23,481 nt of DNA, taken from IMG/VR virus record IMGVR_UViG_2565956633_000002, one strand, 5' to 3'. The notes beneath the pieces were generated by a model that was not told the origin of the DNA, searched no databases, and saw nothing but the letters and a program-made list of their open reading frames with translations. Source of the stretch: a virus. Lineage: Duplodnaviria; Heunggongvirae; Uroviricota; Caudoviricetes. Below, piece after piece: positions 1,365 to 20,354 of the stretch; positions within the stretch are counted from its first letter, which is position 1, and each line of letters begins with the position of its first letter. A program made the position numbers and the translations under genes.

Positions 1365-1394
1365 GGCTAAATTATAGCAATCAATTAGAGCAAT
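1365..1394 (-). promoter_or_regulatory. two overlapping C1 repressor operators upstream of ref (Op2-like), overlapping a TATAAT box
   Basis: Minus strand reads ATTGCTCTAATTGATTGCTATAATTTAG. This matches the asymmetric P1 C1 operator consensus ATTGCTCTAATAAATTT twice, both imperfectly. Confidence 0.6.
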
Positions 1395-1888: not shown

Positions 1889-2920
1889 CTAATTGCCATC
1901 TTCCAGCAGGCGCACCATTGCCCCTGTTTCACTATCCAGGTTACGGATATAGTTCATGACAATATTTACGTTGGTCCAGCCACCAGCTTGCATGATCTCC
2001 GGTATTGAAACTCCGGCACGGGCCATATCTCGCGCGGCTCCGACACGGGCACTGTGTCCAGACCAGGCCAGGTACCTCTGTCCAGAGTCATCCTTAGCCC
2101 CGTAAATCAATCGGTGAGTTGCTTCAAAAATCCCTTCTAGGGCGCGAGTTGATAGCTGGCTGGTGGGTGATGGCGAGGCAACACCATTTTTTCTGACCCG
2201 GCAAAACAGGTAGTTATTCGGATCATCAGCCACACCAGAGACAGAAATCCATCGCTCGACCAGTTTAGTTACCCCCAGGCTAAGTGCCTTCTCTACACCT
2301 GCGGTGCTAACCAGCGTTTTCGTTCTGCCAATATGGATTAACATTCTCCCACCGTCAGTACGTGAGATATCTTTAACCCTGATCCTGGCAATTTCGGCTA
2401 TACGTAACAGGGTGTTATAAGCAATCCCCAGAAATGCCAGATTACGTATATCCTGGCAGCGATCGCTATTTTCCATGAGTGAACGAACCTGGTCGAAATC
2501 AGTGCGTTCGAACGCTAGTGCCTGTTTTGCACGTTCACCGGCATCAACGTTTTCTTTTCGGATCCGCCGCATAACCAGTGAAACAGCATTGCTATCACTT
2601 GGTCGCGGCAGCCCGGACCGACGATGAAGCATGTTTAGCTGGCCCAAATGTTGCTGGATAGTTTTTACTGCCAGACCGCGCGCCTGAAGATATAGAAGAT
2701 AATCGCGAACATCTTCAGGTTCTGCGGGAAACCATTTCCGGTTATTCAACTTGCACCATGCCGCCCACGACCGGCAAACGGACAGAAGCATTTTCCAGGT
2801 ATGCTCAGAAAACGCCTGGCGATCCCTGAACATGTCCATCAGGTTCTTGCGAACCTCATCACTCGTTGCATCGACCGGTAATGCAGGCAAATTTTGGTGT
2901 ACGGTCAGTAAATTGGACAT
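1889..2920 (-). CDS. cre: Cre site-specific tyrosine recombinase, 343 aa
   Basis: Translation MSNLLTVHQNLPALPVDATSDEVRKNLMDMFRDRQAFSEHTWKMLLSVCRSWAAWCKLNNRKWFP...RLLEDGN is Cre. The DNA is near-identical to the P1 cre sequence I know from vectors. Differences I can see: ASPSPT where P1 has AAPSAT, and a C-terminal N where P1 has D. Confidence 0.97.
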   Translation of the reverse strand: MSNLLTVHQNLPALPVDATSDEVRKNLMDMFRDRQAFSEHTWKMLLSVCRSWAAWCKLNNRKWFPAEPEDVRDYLLYLQARGLAVKTIQQHLGQLNMLHRRSGLPRPSDSNAVSLVMRRIRKENVDAGERAKQALAFERTDFDQVRSLMENSDRCQDIRNLAFLGIAYNTLLRIAEIARIRVKDISRTDGGRMLIHIGRTKTLVSTAGVEKALSLGVTKLVERWISVSGVADDPNNYLFCRVRKNGVASPSPTSQLSTRALEGIFEATHRLIYGAKDDSGQRYLAWSGHSARVGAARDMARAGVSIPEIMQAGGWTNVNIVMNYIRNLDSETGAMVRLLEDGN

Positions 2921-2927
2921 TTAACAC

Positions 2928-3149
2928 TCAGATAATGGTTTTAAGTAAAGTGTACAGGATCGGCTCTGCCTTTACCTGTTTATGGTTCTCGTCATAGAAA
3001 CGCCAGCGACCGCGCGTGCGTTCTATTTTCTCTTCACCGCGCGATAATGACAGTTGGCAACTATCACGATCAAACCCTTTTGCCCGCCAGTAACCACGGT
3101 TTTTCTCAAGCTCAAGATGAGTGGACACTTTAGCAGCTGAATATCCCAT
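2928..3149 (-). CDS. hypothetical protein, 73 aa, immediately upstream of cre
   Basis: ATG at 3149 is preceded by GAGGTG then AAAA. The stop lies 8 bp before the cre ATG. Product MGYSAAKVSTHLELEKNRGYWRAKGF... is not recognised. Confidence 0.45.
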   Translation of the reverse strand: MGYSAAKVSTHLELEKNRGYWRAKGFDRDSCQLSLSRGEEKIERTRGRWRFYDENHKQVKAEPILYTLLKTII

Positions 3150-3246
3150 TTTTCACCTCTGATTGATTGGTGGTGCTAAGTGCGCTACGCGAAATCTGGA
3201 GTACTAACACTGCCAACATTTCGCAGATTTTACGTAGCGCAACCTT

Positions 3247-3319
3247 GATCAAATGATCAAGTGATCACTATTTGACCTGATAAGGTATTGAACTGTATGG
3301 ATTTACAGGTGAATTGATC
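3247..3319. promoter_or_regulatory. cluster of four Dam (GATC) sites in the cre upstream region
   Basis: GATC at 3247, 3255, 3263 and 3316, within the palindromes TTGATCAAATGATCAA and AGTGATCACT. From memory, the P1 cre promoter region is reported to be methylation-regulated. Confidence 0.4.
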
Positions 3320-3379
3320 ATGTTCAATAACCCTTAAGGGTCTGAAGAGGAGTTTACGTCCAGCTGCGCATAAAAATCA

Positions 3380-3396
3380 AGAATTATTAGAGCAAT
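3380..3396 (-). promoter_or_regulatory. C1 operator (Op99-like)
   Basis: Minus strand reads ATTGCTCTAATAATTC. Confidence 0.65.
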
Positions 3397-3462
3397 AAAT
3401 TTTGAGAGAAAAATCCCACTCCACCAGCCAAAAACTGGATTGTTTTTCATAGTTGTTTGACA

Positions 3463-3479
3463 ATTGCTCTAATAAATTA
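3463..3479 (+). promoter_or_regulatory. C1 operator (Op99-like), upstream of coi-c1
   Basis: ATTGCTCTAATAAATTA, 16/17 to consensus. Confidence 0.7.
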
Positions 3480-3717
3480 TAGTTTTGCCGCCGTTTCGTA
3501 ATACGACTTTGGATTCACTATTTAATGTGTCTTCAGCGTTGTAGAGCGGCTCAGAAGGAAATGAGCAAACAGGGAAACCTTATACAACGGCATTACAGCT
3601 ATGCATTGCTCATCTTACACACAGCGCAATGTTGTTAGATTACCCCAGCATGGATCATGGGTGAAACAGTAGGTCAGAGCTTCAGGCTCTGTGTTGTCAA
3701 TACAGTGAGGCATAATT

Positions 3718-3927
3718 ATGGCTTTCATTCCACCAACCATCGACGACGTTAGACATTGCTCTAACGCTTTATCTGTAGACCCCGCCGAAACCGACGCTGC
3801 CCGCGCCATTGCTGAACACTACTCAAAGATATCCAATCAGGAGTACCGCATCACCCAAGACGACCTGGATGATCTCACTGACACAATCGAATATCTCATG
3901 GCCACTAACCAGCCAGACTCACAATAA
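3718..3927 (+). CDS. coi: Coi, C1 inactivator, 69 aa
   Basis: 69-codon ORF directly upstream of c1 with Shine-Dalgarno GTGAGG. The size and position are those of P1 coi. Confidence 0.8.
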   Translation: MAFIPPTIDDVRHCSNALSVDPAETDAARAIAEHYSKISNQEYRITQDDLDDLTDTIEYLMATNQPDSQ

Positions 3928-3928
3928 A

Positions 3929-3945
3929 TGCACTAATAAATCTAT
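3929..3945 (+). promoter_or_regulatory. weak C1-operator-like site between coi and c1
   Basis: TGCACTAATAAATCTAT, with the core CTAATAAAT conserved. A near-copy occurs at 23058-23074. Confidence 0.3.
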
Positions 3946-4037
3946 TATTTTCGTTGGATCCTTCTATAATGGTGGCCAACAACTCCCAGTGTAATCCGCT
4001 GTGAGTTGTTGGCCATGTCAATTCTGGAGGAGGATCA

Positions 4038-4889
4038 ATGATAAATTATGTCTACGGCGAACAACTGTACCAGGAGTTCGTCAGCTTCAGGGATCTCTTT
4101 CTAAAAAAAGCTGTTGCACGCGCCCAACACGTTGATGCCGCCAGCGACGGTCGTCCTGTTCGCCCGGTTGTCGTTCTGCCGTTCAAAGAAACGGACAGCA
4201 TTCAGGCTGAAATTGATAAATGGACTTTAATGGCGCGGGAACTGGAACAGTACCCAGACCTCAATATCCCAAAGACTATTTTATATCCAGTGCCTAACAT
4301 CCTTCGCGGTGTGCGTAAGGTTACGACTTATCAGACAGAAGCTGTGAACAGCGTCAACATGACCGCTGGCCGCATTATTCATCTGATTGATAAGGACATT
4401 CGCATCCAGAAAAGCGCGGGGATCAATGAGCACAGTGCGAAATACATAGAGAACCTGGAAGCAACAAAAGAGCTAATGAAGCAGTACCCGGAGGATGAAA
4501 AATTCCGTATGCGTGTACACGGCTTTAGCGAAACAATGCTGCGCGTCCACTACATTTCCAGTAGCCCTAACTACAATGATGGTAAATCAGTTAGTTACCA
4601 TGTGCCGCTGTGTGGTGTGTTTATCTGCGATGAAACTCTCCGTGATGGAATCATCATCAACGGTGAATTCGAGAAAGCAAAATTTAGCCTTTATGACTCT
4701 ATAGAACCGATCATCTGCGACCGCTGGCCGCAGGCAAAAATATATCGCCTGGCAGATATTGAAAATGTAAAAAAACAAATTGCCATCACTCGCGAAGAGA
4801 AAAAGGTCAAATCAGCCGCATCAGTTACGCGCAGCCGTAACACTAAGAAGGGGCAGCCAGTAAACGACAACCCCGAAAGCGCGCAATAA
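4038..4889 (+). CDS. c1: C1 repressor of lysis (immC), 283 aa
   Basis: Translation MINYVYGEQLYQEFVSFRDLFLKKAVARAQHVDAASDGRPVRPVVVLPFKETDSIQAEIDKW... matches P1 C1 in sequence and length. Strong Shine-Dalgarno GGAGGAGG. Confidence 0.95.
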   Translation: MINYVYGEQLYQEFVSFRDLFLKKAVARAQHVDAASDGRPVRPVVVLPFKETDSIQAEIDKWTLMARELEQYPDLNIPKTILYPVPNILRGVRKVTTYQTEAVNSVNMTAGRIIHLIDKDIRIQKSAGINEHSAKYIENLEATKELMKQYPEDEKFRMRVHGFSETMLRVHYISSSPNYNDGKSVSYHVPLCGVFICDETLRDGIIINGEFEKAKFSLYDSIEPIICDRWPQAKIYRLADIENVKKQIAITREEKKVKSAASVTRSRNTKKGQPVNDNPESAQ

Positions 4890-4892
4890 ATT

Positions 4893-4914
4893 ATGCCCGG
4901 CATCAACCGGGCAT
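4893..4914. terminator. bidirectional terminator-like hairpin between the convergent c1 and ant genes
   Basis: ATGCCCGG-CATCAA-CCGGGCAT, an 8-bp stem with A/T-rich flanks on both sides. Confidence 0.45.
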
Positions 4915-4921
4915 TCTTCCA

Positions 4922-6040
4922 TTATTCAGCTGCCACCGGTTTTAACAAGCCAGCATCGAGCAGTTTACGCGTCAACCACTGCTGGCCTTTACCCGTTAAT
5001 TGAGGCGTCAACCGTATCTGGTAGCCATCTTCATCATCCAGCACCACTTCTTTCACCGTGAAATACCCCGCGTTGATGTACTGCTGGAACGGCACATTTT
5101 TACGTCCACCGGACGCTATCAGGATGCCGTTCTCCCGTAACCAGACAAACAGCGCGTTTTGCTTAAGTCCAACAACCTTTGCAAAATTCCCAATCAGGAT
5201 CCCTTTAGCTACTGATACCCGGTCGGCAAAATCGACTTTAGGAGCGGCGGCCACCAGCTGCTGATTTAGCTGGTGGGCTTTCTGTTCCAGAAGTTGCTTT
5301 TGTTCAGCCAGTTCGGCAGCCAGGCGTAGGGCTTCAGGAAGCGTCTGGGGGATTGCGATCGGTTGCTGTTCTTTTTGTCGGAAGTAGCTGTCTTCCAGTT
5401 TTTCAAAGAATGCCCATGCCTGATCGGTTTCGAGCATTTTAGCGTGGCGGGCTGCGCCGCGTTCTGTCCAGAGGGTGAGTGAGCGAACATTGCGAGCAAT
5501 TTTTACAGAGTAGTTTAAAGCTACTCTGTGCTTCAACTCGCGCAATGATTCTCCTTCAACTTTGAAAAAGTGCTTCCCTTCAACAAAGCGTACTTTGTTC
5601 TCATGATGATTTTGGCGAATACGGATTGTTTCTGTCCCATACCCTCTAGCAAGAGTCTCGGTTGTCACTACACGCACTCCCTGCCATTCCAGAACGGGAA
5701 TTTCATCAGACTGATTCTGAACAACCACCAGCTCCGATTCCTGAACTGAAGGTGCATGAATTTTTTCTGATTTAACGTTAGTTGCTTTCATTCTGTGTGC
5801 CTCCTTGCGTGCTTCGGCTGCGACGGTTGCGTAATTCAGATGACCCTGTTCGAGCAGGTATTCGCGAATATCAGACAGCAGGATACGGTGAACCGCGTTC
5901 TTGTCCTTTCTCCGGTAAAGTTGTTTAGTGATCATGAAGTAGTTGGCTATAACACTGGGAATATCCCTGGTGCTGATACAGGCAGTGTGCTGTTCAATTG
6001 CCTCGATCATCTCTTCACGGGTGACTAATGACGTTCTCAT
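4922..6040 (-). CDS. ant: antirepressor Ant1 (372 aa) with in-frame internal start for Ant2 (ATG at 5790, 289 aa); ORF6N/Bro-N-like and KilA-C-like regions
   Basis: 372-codon ORF translationally coupled to the upstream 73-codon ORF (ATGA overlap at 6037-6040). A perfect internal Shine-Dalgarno AAGGAGG sits 8 nt before Met84. The predicted 41 kDa and 32 kDa products fit P1 Ant1/Ant2. The C-terminal region looks like a KilA-C antirepressor domain. Confidence 0.7.
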   Translation of the reverse strand: MRTSLVTREEMIEAIEQHTACISTRDIPSVIANYFMITKQLYRRKDKNAVHRILLSDIREYLLEQGHLNYATVAAEARKEAHRMKATNVKSEKIHAPSVQESELVVVQNQSDEIPVLEWQGVRVVTTETLARGYGTETIRIRQNHHENKVRFVEGKHFFKVEGESLRELKHRVALNYSVKIARNVRSLTLWTERGAARHAKMLETDQAWAFFEKLEDSYFRQKEQQPIAIPQTLPEALRLAAELAEQKQLLEQKAHQLNQQLVAAAPKVDFADRVSVAKGILIGNFAKVVGLKQNALFVWLRENGILIASGGRKNVPFQQYINAGYFTVKEVVLDDEDGYQIRLTPQLTGKGQQWLTRKLLDAGLLKPVAAE

Positions 6041-6577: not shown

Positions 6578-6594
6578 CAATTTATTAGAGCAAA
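6578..6594 (-). promoter_or_regulatory. C1 operator (Op51-like) at the head of the immI-like module
   Basis: Minus strand reads TTTGCTCTAATAAATTG, 15/17 to consensus. Confidence 0.65.
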
Positions 6595-9871: not shown

Positions 9872-9901
9872 ATTAAAGAAATAGCAATACATTAGAGCAA
9901 T
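9872..9901 (-). promoter_or_regulatory. tandem C1 operators (Op88-like)
   Basis: Minus strand reads ATTGCTCTAATGTATTGCTATTTCTTTAAT. Confidence 0.6.
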
Positions 9902-9902
9902 T

Positions 9903-10946
9903 TTATCTAACGCTCGACGAGTGACTTGTGATAGCGCCGACTCCAAGCGCGTAATCAAAGAACAATCGTTGATGCATCGCCAGCCTACCGTGCGTCTTCT
10001 CCCAATTATCGCGGTCACGCTCAATATCACGCTGGCATGACTGGCACAGAGGAATAGCATAAATGTCATGCGCGCATAATCGACTATGACGAACGATATA
10101 AGGCGTAATGTGAGCGCCAGCTCCCGCAGCTCCACAGCCACAGCATGGACGGGAAGCCACAAAGTCCATGTACTCGGGCAATTTTAGCGATTGAAGTTTT
10201 GGTATTTTGAAATGCGCCATACCTGGGTCGGAGTCAACATCCACAGGGCATACTTTTGCACGCATCGGCGCGGCGCGTTCTTCCATCATCTGAACATATG
10301 CTGTAGCGCGATCGTCATACGGGCGAATATCCGCCTCTTTCAGAGGTCCGCTATCCTGCGGAGTAGCCTTCATCTTATTTATTGATATGCGGCAGACTTC
10401 TTCCGGCATCAGGTGCATCATGTTGCGCATGAAAGCCCACCAGCACAGTTCCTGAATACTTAAATCATGGCCATCTGAAAGCCCCATTTCCTGACGGGCG
10501 ACATCCAGTATCCAGTTAACGCGATTATTATGCAGCGTTTCTTTCAGCTCATTAAAACCACGCATCCGGTAATGGTTATCGTGATGCCAGCACAGCAACA
10601 CCGCGCTATTGTCTCGTTCAGTGTGGACAATATGGTTGTCACACCAACTACGATCTGCGGCCTGGCATCGCCCCTCTTTCCTGCGCAACCACGCCACCAG
10701 CGCGTCAATTCCACCAATACGACGAAACAGCTCATCGCTGTTAAAAAACGGCTGCAACGCCTCATTTGTTGCCATGGTTTGCTCGGAAACAACGAGGCCG
10801 TCGTCCATGTGCTCGATTAACTCACGCGGCACCGGCTCCATAATAAATTTACGGCCAGCCTCCACCAGCTTTCTGACCTCCTGATCCACTTTGAATGTGG
10901 CGACGCCAAGCTCTTTTTGTACAAAGGGAGTAATTACGGCTTTCAC
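9903..10946 (-). CDS. hypothetical Cys/His-rich protein, 347 aa (P1 pdcB position)
   Basis: GTG start with Shine-Dalgarno AAGGTG. The product has several CxxC and HxxH clusters ([20 protein letters not shown]) and sits two genes downstream of doc. Confidence 0.65.
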
Positions 10947-11157: not shown

Positions 11158-11538
11158 CTACTCCGCAGAACCATACAATCTACGTAACGTGTCGGCGACA
11201 GAAGATACAGATATCTCGCCAGTCGCAGCGCCTACAGTAAGGTCTGCCAGTTCAGGTGAATCAAATACCTGCACCCCGTTACGGCGTAGAAATAACAGCG
11301 CACTGTTTAGCGCGGTACGCTTATTGGCATCATTGAATATATGCCCTCTCGCTGTAGCCACCAGGTAGGTGGCGGAGACTTCGAAAAGGTCGGTGATCTC
11401 TTCGTAGGCAACTCTGGCCTGAACTCTCCCGATAATGGCCTCTGCCCTACCCGGATCTGACATTCCCGGCAGGCCGCCGTAGCGGTTTATATTCGCATCA
11501 TGAAGCGCAATAAGTTCTTCCGGTGATATATGCCTCAT
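11158..11538 (-). CDS. doc: Doc toxin (Fic/Doc family), 126 aa
   Basis: Translation [75 protein letters not shown]... is essentially P1 Doc. Confidence 0.95.
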
Positions 11539-11935: not shown

Positions 11936-13498
11936 ATGAAAATGACAAGTATTCAACAACGTGCAGAGCTTCATCGTCAAATCTGGCAAATTGCTAACGA
12001 TGTCAGGGGTTCGGTCGATGGATGGGATTTTAAGCAATACGTTCTGGGCGCACTTTTCTACCGTTTTATCAGCGAAAATTTTTCCAGCTATATTGAAGCC
12101 GGTGATGACAGCATCTGTTATGCGAAACTGGATGACAGCGTAATTACTGATGACATTAAAGACGATGCCATCAAAACCAAAGGCTACTTCATCTACCCAA
12201 GTCAGCTTTTCTGCAACGTAGCTGCGAAAGCAAATACCAATGACAGACTGAACGCAGATTTAAACAGCATCTTCGTTGCTATCGAAAGCTCTGCTTACGG
12301 TTACCCTTCAGAAGCTGACATCAAAGGTTTGTTTGCTGATTTCGATACCACCAGTAACCGCCTGGGTAACACCGTTAAAGATAAAAATGCCCGCCTGGCT
12401 GCGGTTCTGAAAGGGGTTGAAGGGTTAAAACTTGGTGACTTCAACGAACATCAGATTGACCTGTTCGGTGATGCCTATGAGTTCCTGATTTCTAACTATG
12501 CGGCAAATGCCGGTAAGTCAGGCGGTGAGTTCTTTACACCGCAGCACGTCTCTAAGCTGATTGCACAACTGGCAATGCACGGCCAGACCCACGTTAACAA
12601 AATCTACGACCCGGCAGCAGGTTCCGGTTCGCTGTTGTTGCAGGCTAAAAAACAGTTTGATGACCATATCATCGAAGAAGGCTTTTTTGGTCAGGAGATC
12701 AACCATACGACCTATAACCTGGCGCGTATGAACATGTTTTTGCACAACATCAACTACGACAAGTTTGATATCAAGCTGGGTAATACACTGACTGAGCCGC
12801 ACTTCAGAGATGAAAAACCGTTTGATGCCATCGTTTCTAACCCGCCGTATTCGGTGAAATGGATTGGCAGCGATGACCCGACGCTGATTAACGATGAACG
12901 TTTTGCCCCGGCTGGCGTTCTGGCCCCCAAATCCAAAGCTGACTTTGCGTTTGTATTACATGCGCTGAACTATCTTTCTGCCAAAGGTCGTGCTGCGATT
13001 GTCTGCTTCCCGGGCATTTTTTACCGTGGCGGCGCGGAGCAGAAAATCCGTCAGTATCTGGTTGACAATAACTATGTCGAAACCGTGATTTCACTGGCAC
13101 CGAACCTGTTCTTTGGCACCACCATTGCCGTAAATATTCTGGTGCTGTCTAAACATAAAACGGATACCAAAGTTCAGTTTATTGACGCCAGCGAACTGTT
13201 CAAAAAAGAGACTAACAACAACATCCTGACCGATGCCCATATCGAAAAAATTATGCAGGTATTTTCCAGCAAGGAAGATGTTGCCCATCTGGCAAAATCT
13301 GTCGCGTTTGAGGCCGTTGTCGCGAATGACTATAACCTGTCAGTGAGCAGCTATGTAGAAGTGAAAGATAACCGCGAAACTATCGATATTGCTGAGCTAA
13401 ATGCTGAGCTGAAAACCACGGTCAGCAAAATCGACCAGTTGCGTAAAGATATTGATGCGATTGTGGCTGAAATTGAAGGCTGCGAGGTGCAGAAATGA
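11936..13498 (+). CDS. hsdM: Type I restriction-modification methyltransferase subunit HsdM, Type IC (EcoR124 family), 520 aa
   Basis: N6-adenine methyltransferase motifs are present: [10 protein letters not shown] (AdoMet binding) and VSNPPYS (motif IV). The 520-aa length and N-terminus [25 protein letters not shown] fit EcoR124-type HsdM. Confidence 0.93.
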
Positions 13499-14706
13499 GC
13501 GAGTTGAGTTATCTGGAAAAATTGCTGGATGGGGTTGAAGTTGAGTGGTTGCCATTGGGGGAAATAACCAAATATGAACAGCCAACAAAGTATTTGGTAA
13601 AAGCAAAAGATTATCACGACACATATACCATACCGGTTCTTACTGCCGGAAAAACATTTATTCTTGGATACACAAATGAGACTCATGGTATTTATCAGGC
13701 ATCAAAGGCACCTGTAATAATTTTTGATGATTTCACCACCGCTAATAAATGGGTGGATTTTGACTTTAAGGCAAAATCATCGGCCATGAAAATGGTTACA
13801 TCATGTGATGATAATAAAACCTTACTGAAATATGTTTACTATTGGCTCAATACATTACCAAGTGAATTCGCAGAGGGAGACCATAAACGCCAATGGATTA
13901 GTAATTATTCTCAAAAAAAAATCCCAATCCCCTGCCCGGATAATCCGGAAAAATCCCTTGCCATCCAGTCTGAAATCGTTCGGATTCTGGATAAATTTAC
14001 TGCACTTACCGCTGAGCTTACCGCTGAGCTTAACATGCGTAAAAAACAGTACAACTATTATCGCGACCAGTTGTTGAGTTTTAAAGAGGGTGAGGTTGAG
14101 TGGAAGACTTTGGAGGAGGTGCTAGTAGATAAATTTTGGATTATGCCCGCAACTCCGAAGTTTGATGACAATGGTGAAATTCCATATGTCACTTCAAAGA
14201 ATATTAGTGGTGGGAACATCGATTTTGAAAGAGTTAAGCATATTTCCCGGGACGATTTTTTGAGCATCTCCAAAAATAGACCGATCTTGAAAGGTGACTT
14301 TCTTATAAGCATGATTGGTACTATTGGTGAGATTGCTCGAGTAAAATGTCTCGATCCTGATTTTTACGGTCAAAACATGTACCTAATCAGGTTGAATGAG
14401 GAATTACTTCACCCTAGATATTTTCTGCATTTCTTCGACTCACCAAGAATGAAATTTTACTTTAAGTCAGTAAAAAACAATTCAGGGCAAGGTTATCTTA
14501 AAGCAAATAACATTGATGGTTTATCTATTCCTTTACCATCGATTGATGAGCAACAAAAAATTGCCTTTATCCTCGATAAGTTCGACACCCTGACCAACTC
14601 CATCACCGAAGGTCTCCCGCGTGAAATCGAGTTGCGCCAGAAACAATACGAGTACTACCGTGATTTACTGTTCAGTTTCCCGAAACCTGAAACTGTCAGT
14701 AATTAA
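13495..14706 (+). CDS. hsdS: Type I specificity subunit HsdS, Type IC, 403 aa, two target-recognition domains
   Basis: ATGA overlap with hsdM. The central conserved region carries the TAEL-TAEL repeat typical of Type IC HsdS, and there are duplicated conserved motifs (QKQYEYYRD / KKQYNYYRD). Confidence 0.9.
14005..14028 (+). repeat. tandem 12-bp repeat (CTTACCGCTGAG x2) encoding TAEL-TAEL in the hsdS central region
   Basis: Exact tandem duplication read directly from the sequence. In the EcoR124I / EcoR124II paradigm, two versus three copies of this repeat change the spacer length of the recognition site. Confidence 0.85.
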
Positions 14707-14828
14707 TTGACCATTGCTACCGACCGGGCCACCTTAACACCCGGTCAGTATATAGGCTATTTTTTTACACGCTGGAAGTCACCATTAACACCCTTCCGGC
14801 CCTTGCCAGACGGCACAAAGGATGCGCT

Positions 14829-17800
14829 ATGACTCATCAGACACACACCATTGCTGAATCCAATAACTTTATCGTTCTTGATAAGTACATCAAAGCTGAG
14901 CAAACAGGCGACAGCTATCAGAGTGAATCGGACCTGGAACGGGAACTGATTCAGGACCTGCGAAATCAGGGCTATGAATTTATACCCGTAAAATCACAGT
15001 CGGCGATGCTGGCCAACGTTCGGGAACAGCTTCAGAACCTCAATGGTGTGGTGTTTAATGACAGCGAATGGCGGCGTTTCACGGAGCAGTATCTGGACAA
15101 CCCGAGTGATGGCATTCTGGATAAGACCCGTAAAATCCATATCGACTATATTTGCGACTTTATTTTTGATGACGAGCGTCTTGAGAACATCTATTTGATA
15201 GATAAAAAGAATCTCATGCGCAATAAGGTGCAGATTATCCAGCAGTTTGAACAGACGGGTTCTCATGCTAACCGTTATGACGTCACGATCCTGGTTAATG
15301 GTTTACCGCTGGTGCAAATCGAACTAAAAAAACGCGGGGTGGCGATTCGTGAGGCTTTCAACCAGATACATCGTTACAGTAAAGAGAGTTTTAACAGCGA
15401 AAATTCCCTGTTTAAGTATCTGCAACTGTTTGTCATTTCTAACGGCACCGATACCCGTTATTTTGCCAACACGACAAAGCGCGATAAAAACAGTTTTGAC
15501 TTCACCATGAATTGGGCGAAATCAGACAACACGCTGATTAAAGACCTCAAAGACTTTACCGCTACCTTTTTCCAGAAACATACTCTGCTGAATGTTCTGG
15601 TGAACTACAGCGTTTTTGACAGTAGTCAGACGCTACTGGTGATGCGACCGTACCAGATTGCCGCCACCGAACGAATCTTATGGAAAATCAACAGCTCCTA
15701 TAAAGCGAAAAACTGGTCTAATCCCGAAAGCGGTGGCTTTATCTGGCACACTACCGGTTCTGGTAAAACACTGACCAGCTTTAAAGCCGCGCGTCTGGCA
15801 ACAGAACTGGACTTTATTGATAAAGTCTTCTTCGTGGTCGACAGGAAAGACCTCGATTACCAGACCATGAAGGAATACCAGCGTTTTTCGCCAGACAGCG
15901 TCAACGGCTCGGAAAATACCGCAGGTCTTAAACGAAATCTGGATAAGGACGATAACAAAATTATCGTCACCACTATTCAGAAACTTAATAACCTGATGAA
16001 AGCAGAAAGCGACCTGCCTGTATACAATCAGCAAGTGGTGTTTATATTTGATGAATGCCACCGCAGCCAGTTTGGAGAAGCGCAGAAAAACCTGAAGAAG
16101 AAATTCAAACGCTATTATCAGTTTGGTTTTACCGGCACACCTATTTTCCCGGAAAACGCTTTAGGCTCAGAAACGACCGCCAGCGTATTTGGCCGTGAAT
16201 TGCATTCGTATGTGATTACCGATGCGATTCGAGATGAAAAAGTGCTTAAATTCAAGGTGGACTACAACGATGTGCGGCCACAGTTTAAGTCTTTAGAGAC
16301 AGAAACCGACGAGAAAAAACTGAGTGCGGCTGAAAATCAGCAGGCGTTTCTTCATCCCATGCGTATACAGGAAATTACGCAATATATTCTGAATAACTTC
16401 CGCCAGAAGACCCACCGTACTTTCCCAGGTTCCAAAGGCTTTAATGCCATGCTGGCAGTGAGTAGCGTGGATGCCGCGAAAGCCTATTACGCGACGTTTA
16501 AACGGTTACAAGAGGAAGCAGCTAATAAATCGGCTACCTATAAACCGCTGCGTGTTGCGACAATCTTCTCCTTTGCCGCCAATGAAGAACAAAATGCCAT
16601 TGGTGAAATTTCCGATGAAACTTTTGATACCAGCGCAATGGACAGCAGTGCTAAAGAGTTTCTGGACGCTGCAATTCGTGAATATAACAGCCATTTTAAA
16701 ACTAACTTTAGCACCGACAGTAACGGTTTTCAGAACTACTATCGTGATTTAGCCCAGCGGGTTAAAAATCAGGATATCGATCTGCTAATTGTCGTGGGGA
16801 TGTTTTTAACCGGCTTCGATGCTCCAACATTGAACACGCTATTCGTCGATAAAAACTTGCGTTTTCACGGCCTGATGCAGGCATTTTCCCGCACCAACCG
16901 TATTTATGATGCAACTAAAACCTTCGGTAATATCGTCACTTTCCGGGATCTGGAACGCTCAACTATTGATGCCATAACGCTGTTTGGTGACAAAAACACC
17001 AAAAATGTGGTGTTAGAAAAGAGTTATACAGAGTATATGGAAGGCTTTACTGATGCTGCTACAGGTGAAGCTAAACGCGGCTTCATGACAGTAGTTTCAG
17101 AACTGGAACAACGGTTCCCTGACCCTGCCAGTATTGAAAGTGAAAAAGAGAAGAAAGACTTCGTTAAACTGTTTGGCGAATACCTGCGTGCCGAGAACAT
17201 CCTGCAAAACTATGATGAATTTGCCACGCTAAAAGCCCTGCAACAAATCGATCTTAGCGATCCTGTTGCGGTAGAAAAATTCAAAGCAGAACATTATGTG
17301 GATGATGAAAAGTTCGCTGAATTGCAAACAATTCGTCTCCCTGCTGATCGCAAGATTCAGGATTATCGTTCTGCCTATAACGATATTCGCGACTGGCAGC
17401 GCCGTGAGAAAGAAGCTGAGAAAAAAGAGAAATCAACCACTGACTGGGATGACGTAGTTTTTGAGGTCGATTTGCTGAAGTCTCAGGAAATAAACCTGGA
17501 TTATATCCTTGGACTGATTTTCGAACACAACAGACAAAATAAAGGCAAGGGCGAAATGATCGAAGAGGTCAAACGCTTAATTCGTTCAAGCCTGGGGAAC
17601 CGAGCGAAAGAGGGCCTGGTGGTCGATTTTATTCAGCAAACGAACCTGGATGATTTACCAGATAAAGCCAGTATCATTGAGGCATTCTTTACGTTTGCTC
17701 AACGCGAACAGCAACGTGAAGCAGAAGCATTGATAAAAGAAGAAAATCTCAATGAAGAAGCAGCAAAACGCTATATTCGCACGTCTTTAAAACGCGAATA

Positions 17801-17945
17801 CGCCACCGAAAATGGCACAGAATTAAACGAAACATTACCAAAACTTAGTCCATTGAATCCGCAATATAAAACGAAAAAACAGGCAGTTTTCCAGAAAATC
17901 GTCTCGTTTATTGAGAAGTTTAAAGGCGTAGGCGGAAAAATATAG
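14829..17945 (+). CDS. hsdR: Type I restriction endonuclease subunit HsdR, Type IC, 1038 aa
   Basis: Superfamily 2 helicase motifs are present (Walker A TGSGKT, DEAH-box FDECHRSQ). The 1038-aa length matches EcoR124I HsdR as I recall it. Shine-Dalgarno AAGGA. Confidence 0.93.
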
Positions 17946-17962
17946 CCCAATTCGTGTTTTTC

Positions 17963-17990
17963 TTGCGGGTTCTTAATTAAACCCGCAAGA
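17963..17990. repeat. perfect 9-bp inverted repeat CTTGCGGGT / ACCCGCAAG around a TTAATTAA core, just after the hsdR stop
   Basis: Read directly from the sequence. There is no U-run after the stem in either transcript orientation, so it is not a classical terminator. It is a possible protein-binding site or island boundary. Confidence 0.5.
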
Positions 17991-18024
17991 GACCGTGGGG
18001 TTCCAAATGGCTAATATACTCCCC

Positions 18025-18111
18025 TTACCCATGCGCGACGATGCCGCCAAAAGTGATAGAGAACAGCCAGAAATAGATCGCGGTCATAATGATTTTGAAT
18101 ACCGTGTTCAT
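18025..18111 (-). CDS. small hydrophobic peptide, 28 aa, predicted single transmembrane helix
   Basis: ATG at 18111 is preceded by Shine-Dalgarno CAGGAG with a 7-nt spacer. Product is MNTVFKIIMTAIYFWLFSITFGGIVAHG. A C1-type operator lies about 85 bp upstream. It is convergent with hsdR. Confidence 0.4.
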   Translation of the reverse strand: MNTVFKIIMTAIYFWLFSITFGGIVAHG

Positions 18112-18140
18112 ATCTTCAGCTCCTGTGATTGATTGGATAT

Positions 18141-18172
18141 ATGCCGCGCCCCTTGCGGCATGTTTTTATTTT
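18141..18172 (+). terminator. rho-independent terminator, plus strand
   Basis: ATGCCGC-GCCCCTT-GCGGCAT followed by GTTTTTATTTT. Confidence 0.55.
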
Positions 18173-18195
18173 CACTTTCTCTGTTTTAAAAAACA

Positions 18196-18212
18196 AGATT
18201 TATTAGAGCAGC
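18196..18212 (-). promoter_or_regulatory. C1 operator
   Basis: Minus strand reads CTGCTCTAATAAATCTT, 14/17 to consensus. Confidence 0.55.
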
Positions 18213-18718
18213 TATTGTTGATGGAGAAGCACGTTTTCATACTCCCTGACCATTAACGTAAGTACGCCGTGACTCCTGAAAACACGCGCCACTTCAATCT
18301 TATCTTCCAGCGCGAACGCAATTTTACTTAGACCAATTTTCTTAAGGAGATCAATCTTTGCTGGACCGTCATTTCTGTCATCGGTGGCAGGACGCATAGA
18401 TAGCAAAGGCTCAGCCCCGTTTGTTACGTACTTCCGCAGCCAGGCTCGTGTTTTATCCCTTGCGATCTCACAGCGCCCGGTTACAAACCAGACCGTGTAA
18501 ACGTTAAATAACTGGCGCACCATATCAATAACTGGAGTGATGGGAGTATCGGTGTCACAGGCAAGGTTAAACTCGTTCCAGTGCTCTGTTAATGCACCTT
18601 TGCCAGGTGGTGGAAGTAAATGCAACCTGTCTTCCGTTGCCTCTGATATCGTCCCATCAATATCTACTATGACGATGTACGGACGTTCCTGGTGTGCGTG
18701 TTTATTGAAAATACTCAA
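18212..18718 (-). CDS. HAD-superfamily phosphatase-like protein, 168 aa (TTG start)
   Basis: HAD motif I DxDGT is present near the N-terminus (IVIVDIDGTISE), and there is a later acidic motif. Shine-Dalgarno GGAGGG precedes the TTG start. Confidence 0.65.
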   Translation of the reverse strand: MSIFNKHAHQERPYIVIVDIDGTISEATEDRLHLLPPPGKGALTEHWNEFNLACDTDTPITPVIDMVRQLFNVYTVWFVTGRCEIARDKTRAWLRKYVTNGAEPLLSMRPATDDRNDGPAKIDLLKKIGLSKIAFALEDKIEVARVFRSHGVLTLMVREYENVLLHQQ

Positions 18719-18791: not shown

Positions 18792-20054
18792 TCAGCGAAC
18801 GTAAATAGTGCCGCCGTTCTCTTTTTCCCATGCATCGCTACGTGCATAGCAAACATCGAGAAGTCTTCTTGCCGCTGTTTCCTCTAAACCCAATTCGACA
18901 ACCAACTGCTCATGACGGCGGGTAACCACATCAAACAGGGTATGCAGCCCTTTAGCTGCCAGATCATCAATAAATTCCGGTTCGAACGGCAGCTCTGCCT
19001 CTGCCAACATAACCTCTTGCGCCCACTCAACTCGACGGACCAGTTCCGGGCGGCGGCTTTCCATCTCTTTACAGATCAATTCATGGAAGAACTCTACCCA
19101 ACCTTCCGGCTGGAACTCGCGGAAAATGGCCAACGGCTGGAAGTTTGGCATCAACCATTCGTTGATCCGGATATCAATGGCATAGCCCATGTCGCAGCAG
19201 AACTGATAAGCAAAGTCCAGCTTAGAAACGATATAAGGACGCTCGTTATTGAACTCTTTAGGCGATGAGATCCCATAAGCCAGGAGGCGCGGGAAGAAGG
19301 AGATTTGCCCTAACGTCGGATGAAGTTTGCTTGCAGGGAAACGGCGCTCAGTAATGCCATACATTTCCTTCTTGAGCGTCGCAAATTTGGCATTCTCATT
19401 AACCAGCGCGGTAACCTCTGCTTTTTTATTAGCAAATGCCACGCGCGCCTCGCTTGCATCTTTAATAGTTTTTTTGAGCTGTTGGTTAAGGTCGGCGACC
19501 TGCTTACGCAGTTCCTGTCGCTCGCTTTTAGCTTTGTTATAGCGTTTCTCAAGGTTAAAAGGATCAAGTTTCATGATCTCTTTATATTGAGATTTTAGCG
19601 TTGAAATCTGTGAGTTCCGCAGTTCAACCATCGCGGTCATTTCATTGAGTTTTGTTTCCAGCTCAATGCTTATACGTTCGGCATTATCAGCACGCTGGTT
19701 GGCGTCATGCGTCGCATCGTCGATCGCGTCCTGTTGCTGGCGTTTCAAATGTTCAATTTGCAGCTGAAGCTCTTCAATTTCTTTACCCTTCAGACCAAGA
19801 TCCAACTGCATATTTTCAGCTGCATCTACCAGGGAGTTATGGCTATCAGCTTCTGCGTTATAAACATCAATAAGCTGTGCGTGAAGCATCTCCGCTGACT
19901 GAACCGCATTATCAAAAAAACGCGCTGTGAGGTCATCACAACTAACGCGGCGTTGCGCGGCCCGGATGTTCTGGATAATGGCCGGGATACCGGCATTCAG
20001 GACGTCAGGGATAGATACATTTTCGATTGATTGGTTTTGTGCTGAAGTGCTCAT
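18792..20054 (-). CDS. hypothetical protein, 420 aa, with a long N-terminal coiled-coil region and an unrecognised C-terminal domain
   Basis: Long ORF with a heptad-rich, charged N-terminal half (LKGKEIEELQLQIEHLKRQQQDAIDD...) and a C-terminal globular part. Its start lies 1 nt after the stop of the upstream 72-codon ORF (TGAAATG). Confidence 0.7.
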   Translation of the reverse strand: MSTSAQNQSIENVSIPDVLNAGIPAIIQNIRAAQRRVSCDDLTARFFDNAVQSAEMLHAQLIDVYNAEADSHNSLVDAAENMQLDLGLKGKEIEELQLQIEHLKRQQQDAIDDATHDANQRADNAERISIELETKLNEMTAMVELRNSQISTLKSQYKEIMKLDPFNLEKRYNKAKSERQELRKQVADLNQQLKKTIKDASEARVAFANKKAEVTALVNENAKFATLKKEMYGITERRFPASKLHPTLGQISFFPRLLAYGISSPKEFNNERPYIVSKLDFAYQFCCDMGYAIDIRINEWLMPNFQPLAIFREFQPEGWVEFFHELICKEMESRRPELVRRVEWAQEVMLAEAELPFEPEFIDDLAAKGLHTLFDVVTRRHEQLVVELGLEETAARRLLDVCYARSDAWEKENGGTIYVR

Positions 20055-20288: not shown

Positions 20289-20354
20289 ATTGCTCTAATA
20301 AAAAACGTGATGAGTGTACATCACGTTTTAAAAATATGGAATTATTAGAGCAAT
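20289..20354. promoter_or_regulatory. pair of divergently oriented C1 operators flanking a hairpin
   Basis: ATTGCTCTAATAAAAAA on the plus strand at 20289-20305. Hairpin CGTGATG-AGTGTA-CATCACG at 20306-20325, with an A-run before and a T-run after. Minus-strand ATTGCTCTAATAATTCC at 20338-20354. Confidence 0.6.

What the first reader, a model, noticed from the sequence alone, without database searches (positions are those of the whole stretch)
18010..18213. C1-operator-controlled 28-codon hydrophobic ORF that is fully overlapped by a potential antisense transcript
The small ORF (18025-18111, minus strand) has a strong Shine-Dalgarno and encodes a single predicted transmembrane helix. The opposite strand carries a TATACT box (18016-18021) and a good terminator (18141-18172), so a plus-strand RNA would be antisense to the entire ORF and its ribosome-binding site. 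This resembles a type I toxin-antitoxin or a small membrane regulator. Alternatively, the ORF could be the 5' remnant of a backbone gene truncated by the hsd insertion.
Basis: inference. Interest (0 to 1): 0.5.

Follow-up and report, generated by a model that had tools for sequence, protein, structure and literature searches.

The report
Small membrane-protein gene heading P1's Op88 operon
The 28-codon ORF is most likely a real, conserved but unstudied small membrane-protein gene at the head of a repressor-controlled early operon of P1-like phage-plasmids; it was not truncated by the restriction-gene insertion, and nothing supports a toxin-antitoxin pair.

Summary
The window is a P1-like phage-plasmid. 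A type I hsdMSR cassette (11936-17945, +) has replaced the variable region pmgT..humD.

**What is there**
- The ORF at 18025-18111(-) exists, with an AGGAG Shine-Dalgarno and one hydrophobic helix.
- It lies downstream of the homologue of P1's C1 operator Op88/OpmgT (18196-18212).

**Not a truncation by hsd**
- P1 itself carries the same 28-codon ORF with the same stop codon.
- P1 homology ends 4 nt after that stop. In P1, pmgT starts 10 nt later.

**Evidence that it is a gene**
- More distant P1-like elements keep the same layout in the same place (Cronobacter phage JK004 and four Logan/metagenome contigs).
- The layout is: operator, -35, 17 nt, -10, a stem-loop at the predicted 5' end, SD, then a small transmembrane ORF.
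- These relatives encode 48-65 aa versions. dN/dS in the 53-aa clade is 0.22-0.39.
- The stem sequences differ between lineages.
- The ORF stop overlaps the next gene's start in three lineages.

**Type I toxin-antitoxin reading: not supported**
- TATACT (18015-18020) lies in hsd-derived DNA, has no -35 and is absent from P1.
- The plus-strand terminator is specific to the P1 clade.
- The sense mRNA is not unusually structured.
- There are no Rfam, Pfam or NCBIfam matches.

Any antisense RNA here would most plausibly be hsdR read-through. Function is unknown. Interest is modest.

The parts
18196..18212 (-). C1 repressor operator, the homologue of P1 OpmgT (former Op88). Its 5' end overlaps the pap stop codon.
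   Evidence: It matches ATTGCTCTAATAAATTT with 3 mismatches; the window holds 9 matches against 0.14 expected. P1 annotates the same position as a protein_bind feature. The operator is conserved in JK004, L121-L123 and L135.
18168..18196 (-). Predicted promoter, equivalent to P1pmgT in the P1 record: -35 TTGTTT (18191-18196) abutting the operator, a 17-nt spacer, and -10 GAAAAT (18168-18173).
   Evidence: The P1 annotation predicts this promoter. The geometry TTGATT/TTGTTT, 17 nt, nAgAAT is kept in four diverged lineages. It is weak by consensus and the scan did not call it. No transcription start site has been measured.
18141..18161 (-). Stem-loop ATGCCGC-AAGGGGC-GCGGCAT at the predicted 5' end of the mRNA. 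Read on the + strand together with the T-run at 18163-18172, it forms an intrinsic-terminator-like site.
   Evidence: Folds are and the terminator scan. Relatives have a hairpin at the same place with different stems, including one compensatory A-U to G-C change between L121 and L122. Loop indels of 1-2 nt are tolerated.
18120..18124 (-). Shine-Dalgarno AGGAG, 8 nt upstream of the ATG, inside the conserved motif CAATCA(C/T)(A/C)GGAGC.
   Evidence: Sequence; conservation of the motif across clades.
18025..18111 (-). 28-codon ORF for a small single-pass membrane protein, stop codon included.
18015..18024 (.). Junction between the P1 backbone and the hsd cassette. P1 homology ends at 18021, which is the GGGG after the stop codon. 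The TATACT hexamer (18015-18020, +) begins immediately on the hsd side.
   Evidence: Alignment with P1 and SJ46; BLAST boundaries; downstream sequence classes.
14829..17945 (+). hsdR (EcoR124-type C-terminal domain), convergent with the small ORF. Its read-through is the most plausible source of any antisense RNA.
   Evidence: Pfam domains. No canonical terminator lies between 17945 and 18139 on the + strand. The hairpin at 17961-17990 has no U-run.
18212..18718 (-). pap (HAD/PNKP-type phosphatase), the upstream neighbour.

Best explanation
The ORF is a genuine small gene. It is the first cistron of the C1-repressed Op88/pmgT early operon found in P1-like phage-plasmids.

**Proposed mechanism**
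1. C1 binds the operator that abuts the -35 and keeps the unit off in the lysogen. This step rests on homology to P1 Op88, which was shown to be an operator experimentally.
2. On derepression, transcription starts at about 18161, at the foot of a stem-loop. That stem-loop probably protects the 5' end of the mRNA (inferred).
3. Ribosomes load at the exposed AGGAG and make a 28-aa peptide. Residue K6 precedes one hydrophobic helix at residues 7-25. The peptide most likely inserts in the inner membrane with its N terminus inside (inferred).
4. In P1-type genomes its stop codon lies inside the SD of pmgT. In relatives the stop overlaps the next start codon. Its translation therefore probably also drives expression of the downstream gene (inferred).

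**What differs in this window**
- The downstream genes were replaced by a convergent hsdMSR cassette, so the peptide is the only product of the unit.
- The transcript would run antisense into hsdR.
- hsdR read-through would be antisense to the ORF and would stop at the hairpin plus T-run.

**Function**
The biochemical target of the peptide is unknown. The closest working analogy is a small membrane protein that modulates a host or phage membrane protein early after induction.
For: **The ORF is intact in P1 and widespread**
- P1 and SJ46 have the same ORF and stop codon. pmgT starts 10 nt later.
- Of about 118 loci, all but two (L035 and L091) keep the start codon, the reading frame and a stop at the same position.

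**The 44-aa start used by some annotations is unlikely**
- Loop-length variants AAGGC, AAGGGC and AAGGGGC put the upstream ATG in or out of frame. This argues for the SD-proximal start.

**Conserved layout in diverged relatives**
- JK004 (Pap 72% identical), L121-L123, L135 and L142 have the same operator, promoter, hairpin, SD and small transmembrane ORF, in the same position after pmgS or pap.
- Residues M1, K6, A11 and W15 are invariant, and a 19-aa hydrophobic window with mean KD 2.0-2.3 is kept.
- dN/dS is 0.22-0.39 within the 53-aa clade.
- The stop overlaps the next start (ATGA or TGATG) in three lineages.

**Hairpin**
- Stems differ between lineages but still pair.

**Family size**
- An exhaustive profile search of 1.84 billion representative proteins returned only this family, 9 hits.
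Against: - No transcript, transcription start site, ribosome-profiling or peptide data were available.
- The promoter is weak by consensus and the scan did not call it.
- Selection evidence within the P1 clade alone is weak: 9 distinct synonymous versus 12 non-synonymous variants, binomial p = 0.056.
- In hsd-type loci 21 of 33 copies carry amino-acid changes, including G22D and G23D inside the helix. The copy in this window may therefore be under relaxed constraint.
- The P1-clade protein lacks the 20-40 aa hydrophilic tail of its relatives.
- CRISPRi knock-down of pap, pmgT, pmgU and pmgV shows no lytic-growth defect (PMC10695390), so no phenotype is known.
Confidence: 0.72

Rival explanations
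1. Translated leader only. The ORF is translated, but the peptide sequence does not matter in the P1 clade. It survives because its translation couples ribosomes to pmgT and shields the mRNA from Rho, or because it overlaps RNA-level signals. In this window it would be a functionless relic.
For: - The stop codon sits inside the pmgT SD, and stop and start overlap in relatives.
- The P1 clade has lost the hydrophilic tail.
- In pmgT-type loci even synonymous variation is low: 4 synonymous variants in 28 codons, against 30 in the last 65 codons of pap.
- hsd-type copies accumulate substitutions. The ratio of small-ORF to pap variants is 17/32 in hsd-type loci against 7/47 in pmgT-type loci, Fisher p = 0.011.
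Against: - Hydrophobic character and specific residues (K6, A11, W15) are kept across clades whose synonymous sites are saturated.
- dN/dS is 0.22-0.39 in the 53-aa clade.
- A pure coupling device would not need a transmembrane helix.
Confidence: 0.18
2. Type I toxin-antitoxin. The peptide is a membrane toxin, and a plus-strand RNA that runs from the TATACT box to the terminator is its antisense antitoxin.
For: - The peptide is small and hydrophobic, similar in size to TisB or DinQ (my own knowledge).
- A plus-strand hairpin with T-run lies just beyond the ORF start.
Against: - TATACT has no -35 and no promoter-like site is called.
- It lies in hsd-derived DNA and is absent from P1-type loci.
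- The terminator T-run is missing in JK004, L121 and L135.
- The sense RNA fold has z = -0.3 with the SD accessible.
- The unit is under the phage repressor and heads an operon.
- There are no Rfam or Pfam toxin or sRNA matches.
Confidence: 0.05
3. Remnant of a longer backbone gene cut by the hsd insertion.
For: - The P1/hsd junction lies only 4 nt after the stop codon.
- More distant relatives encode longer proteins of 48-65 aa.
Against: - P1 and about 80 pmgT-type loci without hsd have the identical 28-codon ORF and stop codon.
- Any shortening relative to the 48-65 aa forms therefore predates the hsd insertion and is unrelated to it.
Confidence: 0.02

Closest known systems
Bacteriophage P1 Op88 (OpmgT) operator and promoter region upstream of pmgT (NC_005856, 84293-84488)
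   Same: The DNA is orthologous, with about 97% identity over the 780 nt shared with P1. It has the same operator, predicted promoters, hairpin and small ORF.
   Different: The P1 reference annotation lists no CDS in this leader. In the window, pmgT and everything up to humD is replaced by hsdMSR. The operator has two extra mismatches (GC for AT at positions 1-2) and the hairpin loop is 2 nt longer.
Database entries annotated 'membrane protein' or 'hypothetical protein': SJ46 J46_0098 (AMR60016.1) and RefSeq WP_001312275.1 (44 aa), plus the 28-aa ECO9545_16321
   Same: Same reading frame and same C-terminal 28 residues.
   Different: The 44-aa forms start at an ATG inside the hairpin that has no SD. 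Loop indels throw that ATG out of frame in this window and in at least 9 other loci. The 28-aa start is the likely one.
Bacterial small single-pass membrane regulators under 50 aa, such as MgtS, PmrR, AcrZ and KdpF (my own knowledge)
   Same: Similar size, one helix, a strong ribosome-binding site of its own, and conditional expression.
   Different: No sequence relationship was found. No partner protein is known. This one is phage-encoded and repressor-controlled.
Type I toxins with cis-antisense RNAs, such as hok/sok, tisB/istR and dinQ/agrB (my own knowledge)
   Same: A small hydrophobic peptide, and in this window a possible overlapping antisense transcript.
   Different: There is no dedicated antisense promoter, no conserved antisense terminator, no structured translation-blocking 5' UTR and no family match.
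Type IC hsd loci flanked by P1-like DNA (EcoR124, EcoDXXI), as noted in the P1 GenBank record
   Same: The hsdR-proximal flank in the window is the flank that the P1 record notes as 96-98% identical to DNA downstream of the EcoDXXI hsd locus and of R124/3 hsdR.
   Different: In IncF-type plasmids the P1 remnant is cut by IS1 at window position 18104. That removes the start codon and the promoter. Here the whole unit is intact.

Membership tests
Type I toxin-antitoxin system | Small hydrophobic membrane-active peptide ORF | tested here: met
   28 aa; residues 7-25 have mean KD 1.97.
Type I toxin-antitoxin system | Antisense RNA antitoxin with its own promoter, conserved together with the toxin | tested here: not met
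   No promoter-like site was called. TATACT lies in hsd-side DNA and is absent from P1-type loci. No conserved antisense promoter or terminator occurs in JK004, L135 or L121.
Type I toxin-antitoxin system | Toxin mRNA with a structured leader that limits translation | tested here: not met
   The sense RNA fold has z = -0.32. The SD is unpaired in the centroid folds of 4 of the 5 homologues; in the window's own fold it is partly paired in a weak helix.
Type I toxin-antitoxin system | Match to a described toxin or antitoxin family | tested here: not met
   Pfam, NCBIfam and PHROGs gave no significant hit. Rfam gave only a sub-threshold GcvB match, 17 bits against a gathering score of 42.
Type I toxin-antitoxin system | Growth arrest on overexpression, relieved by the antisense RNA | not testable with these tools
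   Needs an experiment.
P1 C1-controlled early operon | 17-bp asymmetric operator matching ATTGCTCTAATAAATTT and overlapping the promoter | tested here: met
   18196-18212(-), 14 of 17 positions. Orthologous to OpmgT/Op88. The -35 abuts the operator.
P1 C1-controlled early operon | C1 binding and repression shown for this copy | not testable with these tools
   The window copy has two extra mismatches at operator positions 1-2, a variant seen in no other locus. Binding was shown only for P1 Op88 (Citron et al. 1989, as cited in PMC5005818).
Genuine protein-coding small gene | Conserved start, frame and SD in diverged relatives at the same genomic position | tested here: met
   JK004, L121-L123, L135 and L142.
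Genuine protein-coding small gene | Purifying selection on the peptide | tested here: met
   dN/dS is 0.22-0.39 in the 53-aa clade. The signal is weak within the P1 clade alone, p = 0.056.
Genuine protein-coding small gene | Direct evidence of translation | not testable with these tools
   No ribosome-profiling or proteomic data were found.
Gene fragment created by the hsd insertion | A longer ORF with the same N terminus in hsd-free relatives of the same clade | tested here: not met
   P1 and SJ46 have the same 28 codons and stop. 83 of the 85 non-hsd loci likewise.

The most novel reading that the evidence does not exclude
The peptide could be a functional early effector that is conserved across P1-like phage-plasmids, for example a modulator of a host inner-membrane protein. 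In hsd-carrying elements the retained C1-controlled promoter would fire convergently into hsdR on prophage induction. Induction would then be coupled to antisense down-regulation of the element's own restriction subunit, while hsdR read-through would dampen the peptide during lysogeny.
Probability: 0.1. Interest if true: 0.6.

Novelty: new member of a known kind. Interest (0 to 1): 0.3.

Why it matters
- P1 is a reference phage, yet its curated annotation has no gene in the Op88 leader.
- Other records call a 44-aa protein there, probably from the wrong start codon.
- Recognising a conserved, repressor-controlled small membrane protein at the head of variable region 8 adds one gene to the P1 early programme. 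That region often carries restriction systems and other cargo.
- It corrects the start-site annotation.
- It provides a defined promoter, 5' hairpin and SD module that stays in place whatever cargo follows.
- It does not change any general principle.

Tried and rejected
I used the 44-aa, 53-aa and 48-aa forms instead.

**Searches that found nothing useful**
- Pfam, NCBIfam and PHROGs gave nothing significant. The best hits were phrog_27041 at E = 0.16 and phrog_22925 at E = 0.05.
- Rfam gave only a sub-threshold GcvB hit.
- The metagenome scan added only one JK004-like locus, L142, among chance hits.

**A wasted scan**
- The single genome-contig scan used a mistyped anchor, CCAATCAC instead of TCAATCAC. 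It returned only chance hits; the Klebsiella hit L126 is an unrelated gene.

**Literature**
- Lobocka et al. 2004 is not held.
- The P1vir RNA-seq paper says nothing about this region.

**Ideas rejected**
- That the ORF's stop codon is a boundary shared by many different cargo types. Only two major downstream classes exist, pmgT-type and hsd-type, plus rare others.
- That hsd-type copies have a different syn/non-syn ratio from pmgT-type copies. The counts are 8/9 against 4/3, Fisher p = 1.
- That the plus-strand ORF 17995-18132 is a gene. It spans the junction and has no SD.

Full report
**Context**

The window is a P1-like phage-plasmid (Punavirus). Pfam scans and BLAST identify these genes:
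- cre at 1889-2920(-)
- pdcB/DUF968 at 9903-10946(-)
- doc at 11158-11538(-)
- hsdM at 11936-13498(+), hsdS at 13495-14706(+) and hsdR at 14829-17945(+), the last with an EcoR124_C domain
- pap at 18212-18718(-)
- pmgS at 18792-20054(-)

From ORF lengths, c1 (4038-4889) and pacB/pacA are also recognisable; this is inference. The hsd cassette occupies the position of pmgT-pmgU-pmgV-upfMNO-hot-lxr-humD in P1. A survey of P1-like plasmids calls that stretch highly variable region 8 (PMC9603915). The P1 GenBank record notes that the DNA just downstream of Op88 is 96-98% identical to DNA downstream of the EcoDXXI hsd locus and of R124/3 hsdR.

**Checking the observation**

These elements are present as described:
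- The ORF 18025-18111(-) encodes MNTVFKIIMTAIYFWLFSITFGGIVAHG.
- AGGAG lies 8 nt upstream of the ATG.
- Residues 7-25 are hydrophobic, mean KD 1.97.
- A C1-operator match, GCTGCTCTAATAAATCT, lies at 18196-18212(-). It is one of nine in the window, against 0.14 expected, and is orthologous to P1 OpmgT/Op88.
- A plus-strand hairpin at 18139-18163 followed by a T-run is called as terminator-like.

The TATACT hexamer is at 18015-18020. It has no -35 partner, and no promoter-like site was called on either strand.

**Not a truncation by hsd**

Alignment with P1 and SJ46 shows the same 28 codons and the same TAA. Homology continues through TAAGGGG and breaks at window position 18021/18020. In P1 the next bases are GATGCATGAAAGG, the SD and start of pmgT. 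The TATACT box therefore lies entirely in hsd-derived DNA and does not exist in P1-type genomes.

**Distribution**
- 916 E. coli RefSeq records, from 885 of 5426 genomes and almost all plasmids, match the region.
- They fall into three classes. hsd-type matches are full length. P1-type matches begin at 18021. In IncF-type plasmids only 17990-18104 survives next to hsdR, and IS1 removes the ORF start and promoter.
- In 118 loci, mostly from IMG/VR, the downstream sequence is pmgT-type in 76, hsd-type in 33 (the window included) and other in 9. Seven of those nine are pmgT-like variants.

**Which start codon**

Some records annotate a 44-aa protein: SJ46 'membrane protein' and RefSeq WP_001312275.1. 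That form starts at an ATG inside the hairpin and has no SD. Loop-length variants (AAGGC, AAGGGC, AAGGGGC) move that ATG out of frame in this window and in at least nine other loci, while the SD-proximal ATG is always kept. The 28-aa form is the likely product.

**Is it a gene?**

Evidence within the P1 clade is modest.
- No start-codon loss, frameshift or premature stop was seen in the loci with a full-length ORF, except two (L035 and L091) whose 3' end is replaced after codon 19.
- There are 9 distinct synonymous and 12 distinct non-synonymous variants, binomial p = 0.056.

The stronger evidence comes from more distant relatives.
- Cronobacter phage JK004 (Pap 72% identical) has, after pap: the operator ATTGCTCTAATAAATAT, then TTGTTT, 17 nt, AATAAT, the hairpin GGCCGC...GCGGCC, CAATCAATCACCGGAGCC, and an ATG opening a 53-aa ORF, MHLIFKLAITAFYAWMLTVVITSFKPDANMKASRYLGNLSASYDCDQQGDDSL. 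Its stop overlaps the next start as ATGA.
- Logan contigs L121-L123 carry 53-aa forms.
- L135 carries a 48-aa form, MNTAFKLAMAAFYFWIFCIAFNGLVKAAPTLQVIYQNDAPASNQEGSF. Here pap is missing and the unit follows pmgS directly.
- A 65-aa variant, P0028, also exists.

All of these share the same architecture. M1, K6, A11 and W15 are invariant, and a hydrophobic helix is always present. dN/dS within the 53-aa clade is 0.22-0.39. Between P1 and that clade synonymous sites are saturated (pS 0.65-0.78) while pN is 0.42. An exhaustive profile search of 1.84 billion representatives found only nine proteins, all of this family. The family is therefore real, small and confined to P1-like elements. Its helix is conserved and its C-terminal tail is variable, from 3 to 40 residues.

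**The hairpin and the 'terminator'**

Every lineage has a stem-loop 25-40 nt upstream of the start codon, but the stems differ:
- ATGCCGC/GCGGCAT
- GGCCGC/GCGGCC
- UUGGCAGUCAC/GUGACUGCCAA, against UUGGCGGUCGC/GUGACCGCCGA, which differ by a compensatory A-U to G-C change
- AAGGCCAC/GUGGCCUU

With the conserved geometry of -35, 17 nt and -10, the predicted start site falls at the foot of the stem. The element is therefore best read as a 5'-terminal stem-loop of the sense mRNA. Such structures are known to protect against 5'-end-dependent decay; that is established knowledge, not tested here.

Only in the P1 clade is the stem preceded by AAAATAAAAAC. That stretch is the -10 and discriminator region, and on the other strand it gives the T-run that makes a terminator. 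JK004, L121 and L135 lack the T-run, while P1 has it. So the plus-strand terminator is a lineage-specific and possibly incidental property. In this window it is nevertheless the first canonical terminator after hsdR. The 11-bp hairpin at 17961-17990 has no U-run.

**Type I toxin-antitoxin reading**

The defining features other than peptide size were not met:
- There is no antisense promoter, in this window or conserved elsewhere.
- There is no conserved antisense terminator.
- The sense RNA is not unusually structured, z = -0.32. The SD is unpaired in the centroid folds of four of the five homologues; in the window's own fold it is partly paired in a weak helix.
- There is no family match.
- The unit is under the phage repressor and heads an operon.

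Any antisense RNA in this window is more simply explained as the hsdR 3' UTR. Conversely, the Op88 transcript meets no convincing minus-strand terminator before entering hsdR. Both points are inferences.

**State of the copy in this window**

hsd-type loci carry many more amino-acid variants (21 of 33 copies) than pmgT-type loci (3 of 76). The variants include A10T, G22D, G23S/D and G28R. Relative to the adjacent end of pap, the small ORF is enriched in variants: 17/32 against 7/47, p = 0.011. The syn/non-syn ratio does not differ (8/9 against 4/3). The sequences are not independent, so this is only a hint. It could mean relaxed constraint once the downstream operon is lost. It could also mean import of neutrally evolved copies that travelled with hsd cassettes.

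The window's peptide has A4V and A10T. Its operator has a GC-for-AT change seen in no other locus.

**Function**

Function is unknown. CRISPRi knock-down of pap, pmgT, pmgU and pmgV gave no lytic defect in P1 (PMC10695390).

My best mechanistic reading has three parts:
- It is a C1-repressed early transcript with a protective 5' stem-loop.
- It encodes a small inner-membrane peptide with its N terminus inside and a variable periplasmic tail.
- Translation of the peptide is coupled to the next gene.

The peptide's target is undetermined.

**Verdict**

The sequence features are real apart from the antisense promoter. The gene is real but ordinary in kind and unannotated in the P1 reference. The toxin-antitoxin and truncation readings are not supported. 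Interest is modest.

Noticed in passing
window 1378-1394, 3380-3396, 3463-3479, 3927-3943, 6578-6594, 9885-9901, 20289-20305, 20338-20354: Eight further matches to the C1 operator consensus with at most 3 mismatches, against 0.14 expected by chance. They lie around cre, c1 and coi, upstream of pacB and lpa, and at pmgR, as expected for a P1-type immunity network.
   Followed up: no
window 17961-17990: A perfect 11-bp GC-rich hairpin, CTTGCGGGTTC...AACCCGCAAG, lies 16 nt after the hsdR stop. It has a U-run before it rather than after it, so it is not a canonical terminator in either direction. The plus-strand 3' flank of hsdR folds with z = -3.1.
   Followed up: partly
L006 (NZ_CP024816.1, pCREC-629_1) 3001-5935: In IncF-type plasmids the hsdR gene with its 84-bp P1 remnant is cut by IS1A. 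It sits next to an S-4TM effector gene and a SMODS nucleotidyltransferase gene, which look like a CBASS-type defence pair.
   Followed up: no
L135 2834-3001: This P1-like relative lacks pap entirely. The operator, promoter, hairpin and small-ORF unit follows pmgS directly, so the unit is independent of pap.
   Followed up: partly
L120 3540-3548; L121, L122 and L135 hairpin loops: The non-P1 lineages have different stems but similar 9-nt loops: ACGCTATCA, GCACTACCA and GCGCTTCCA. A conserved loop on variable stems could be a recognition site. The P1 clade has a short, unrelated loop, AAGG(GG)C.
   Followed up: no
L035 and L091 (IMG/VR), small ORF codon 19 onward: In two loci the ORF is interrupted after codon 19 by AT-rich foreign sequence (AACAAAAAAACCTTAATAG...), giving a 48-aa chimeric ORF in L091 (L035 has no stop within the 150 nt read). 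These are the only disrupted copies among about 118.
   Followed up: no
L120 3745-4059; L122 3159-3473: The gene coupled to the small ORF in the 53-aa clade is 104 aa. It has weak matches to Ren-like exclusion proteins and MarR-type winged-helix proteins (phrog_142 at E = 7e-4; MarR_2 weak). It is not obviously related to P1 pmgT, which matches phrog_874.
   Followed up: no
window 18212-18214 / operator positions 1-2: The pap stop codon overlaps the first bases of the C1 operator. In this window TAA became TAG and the next T became C, which gives an operator variant seen in no other locus examined.
   Followed up: partly
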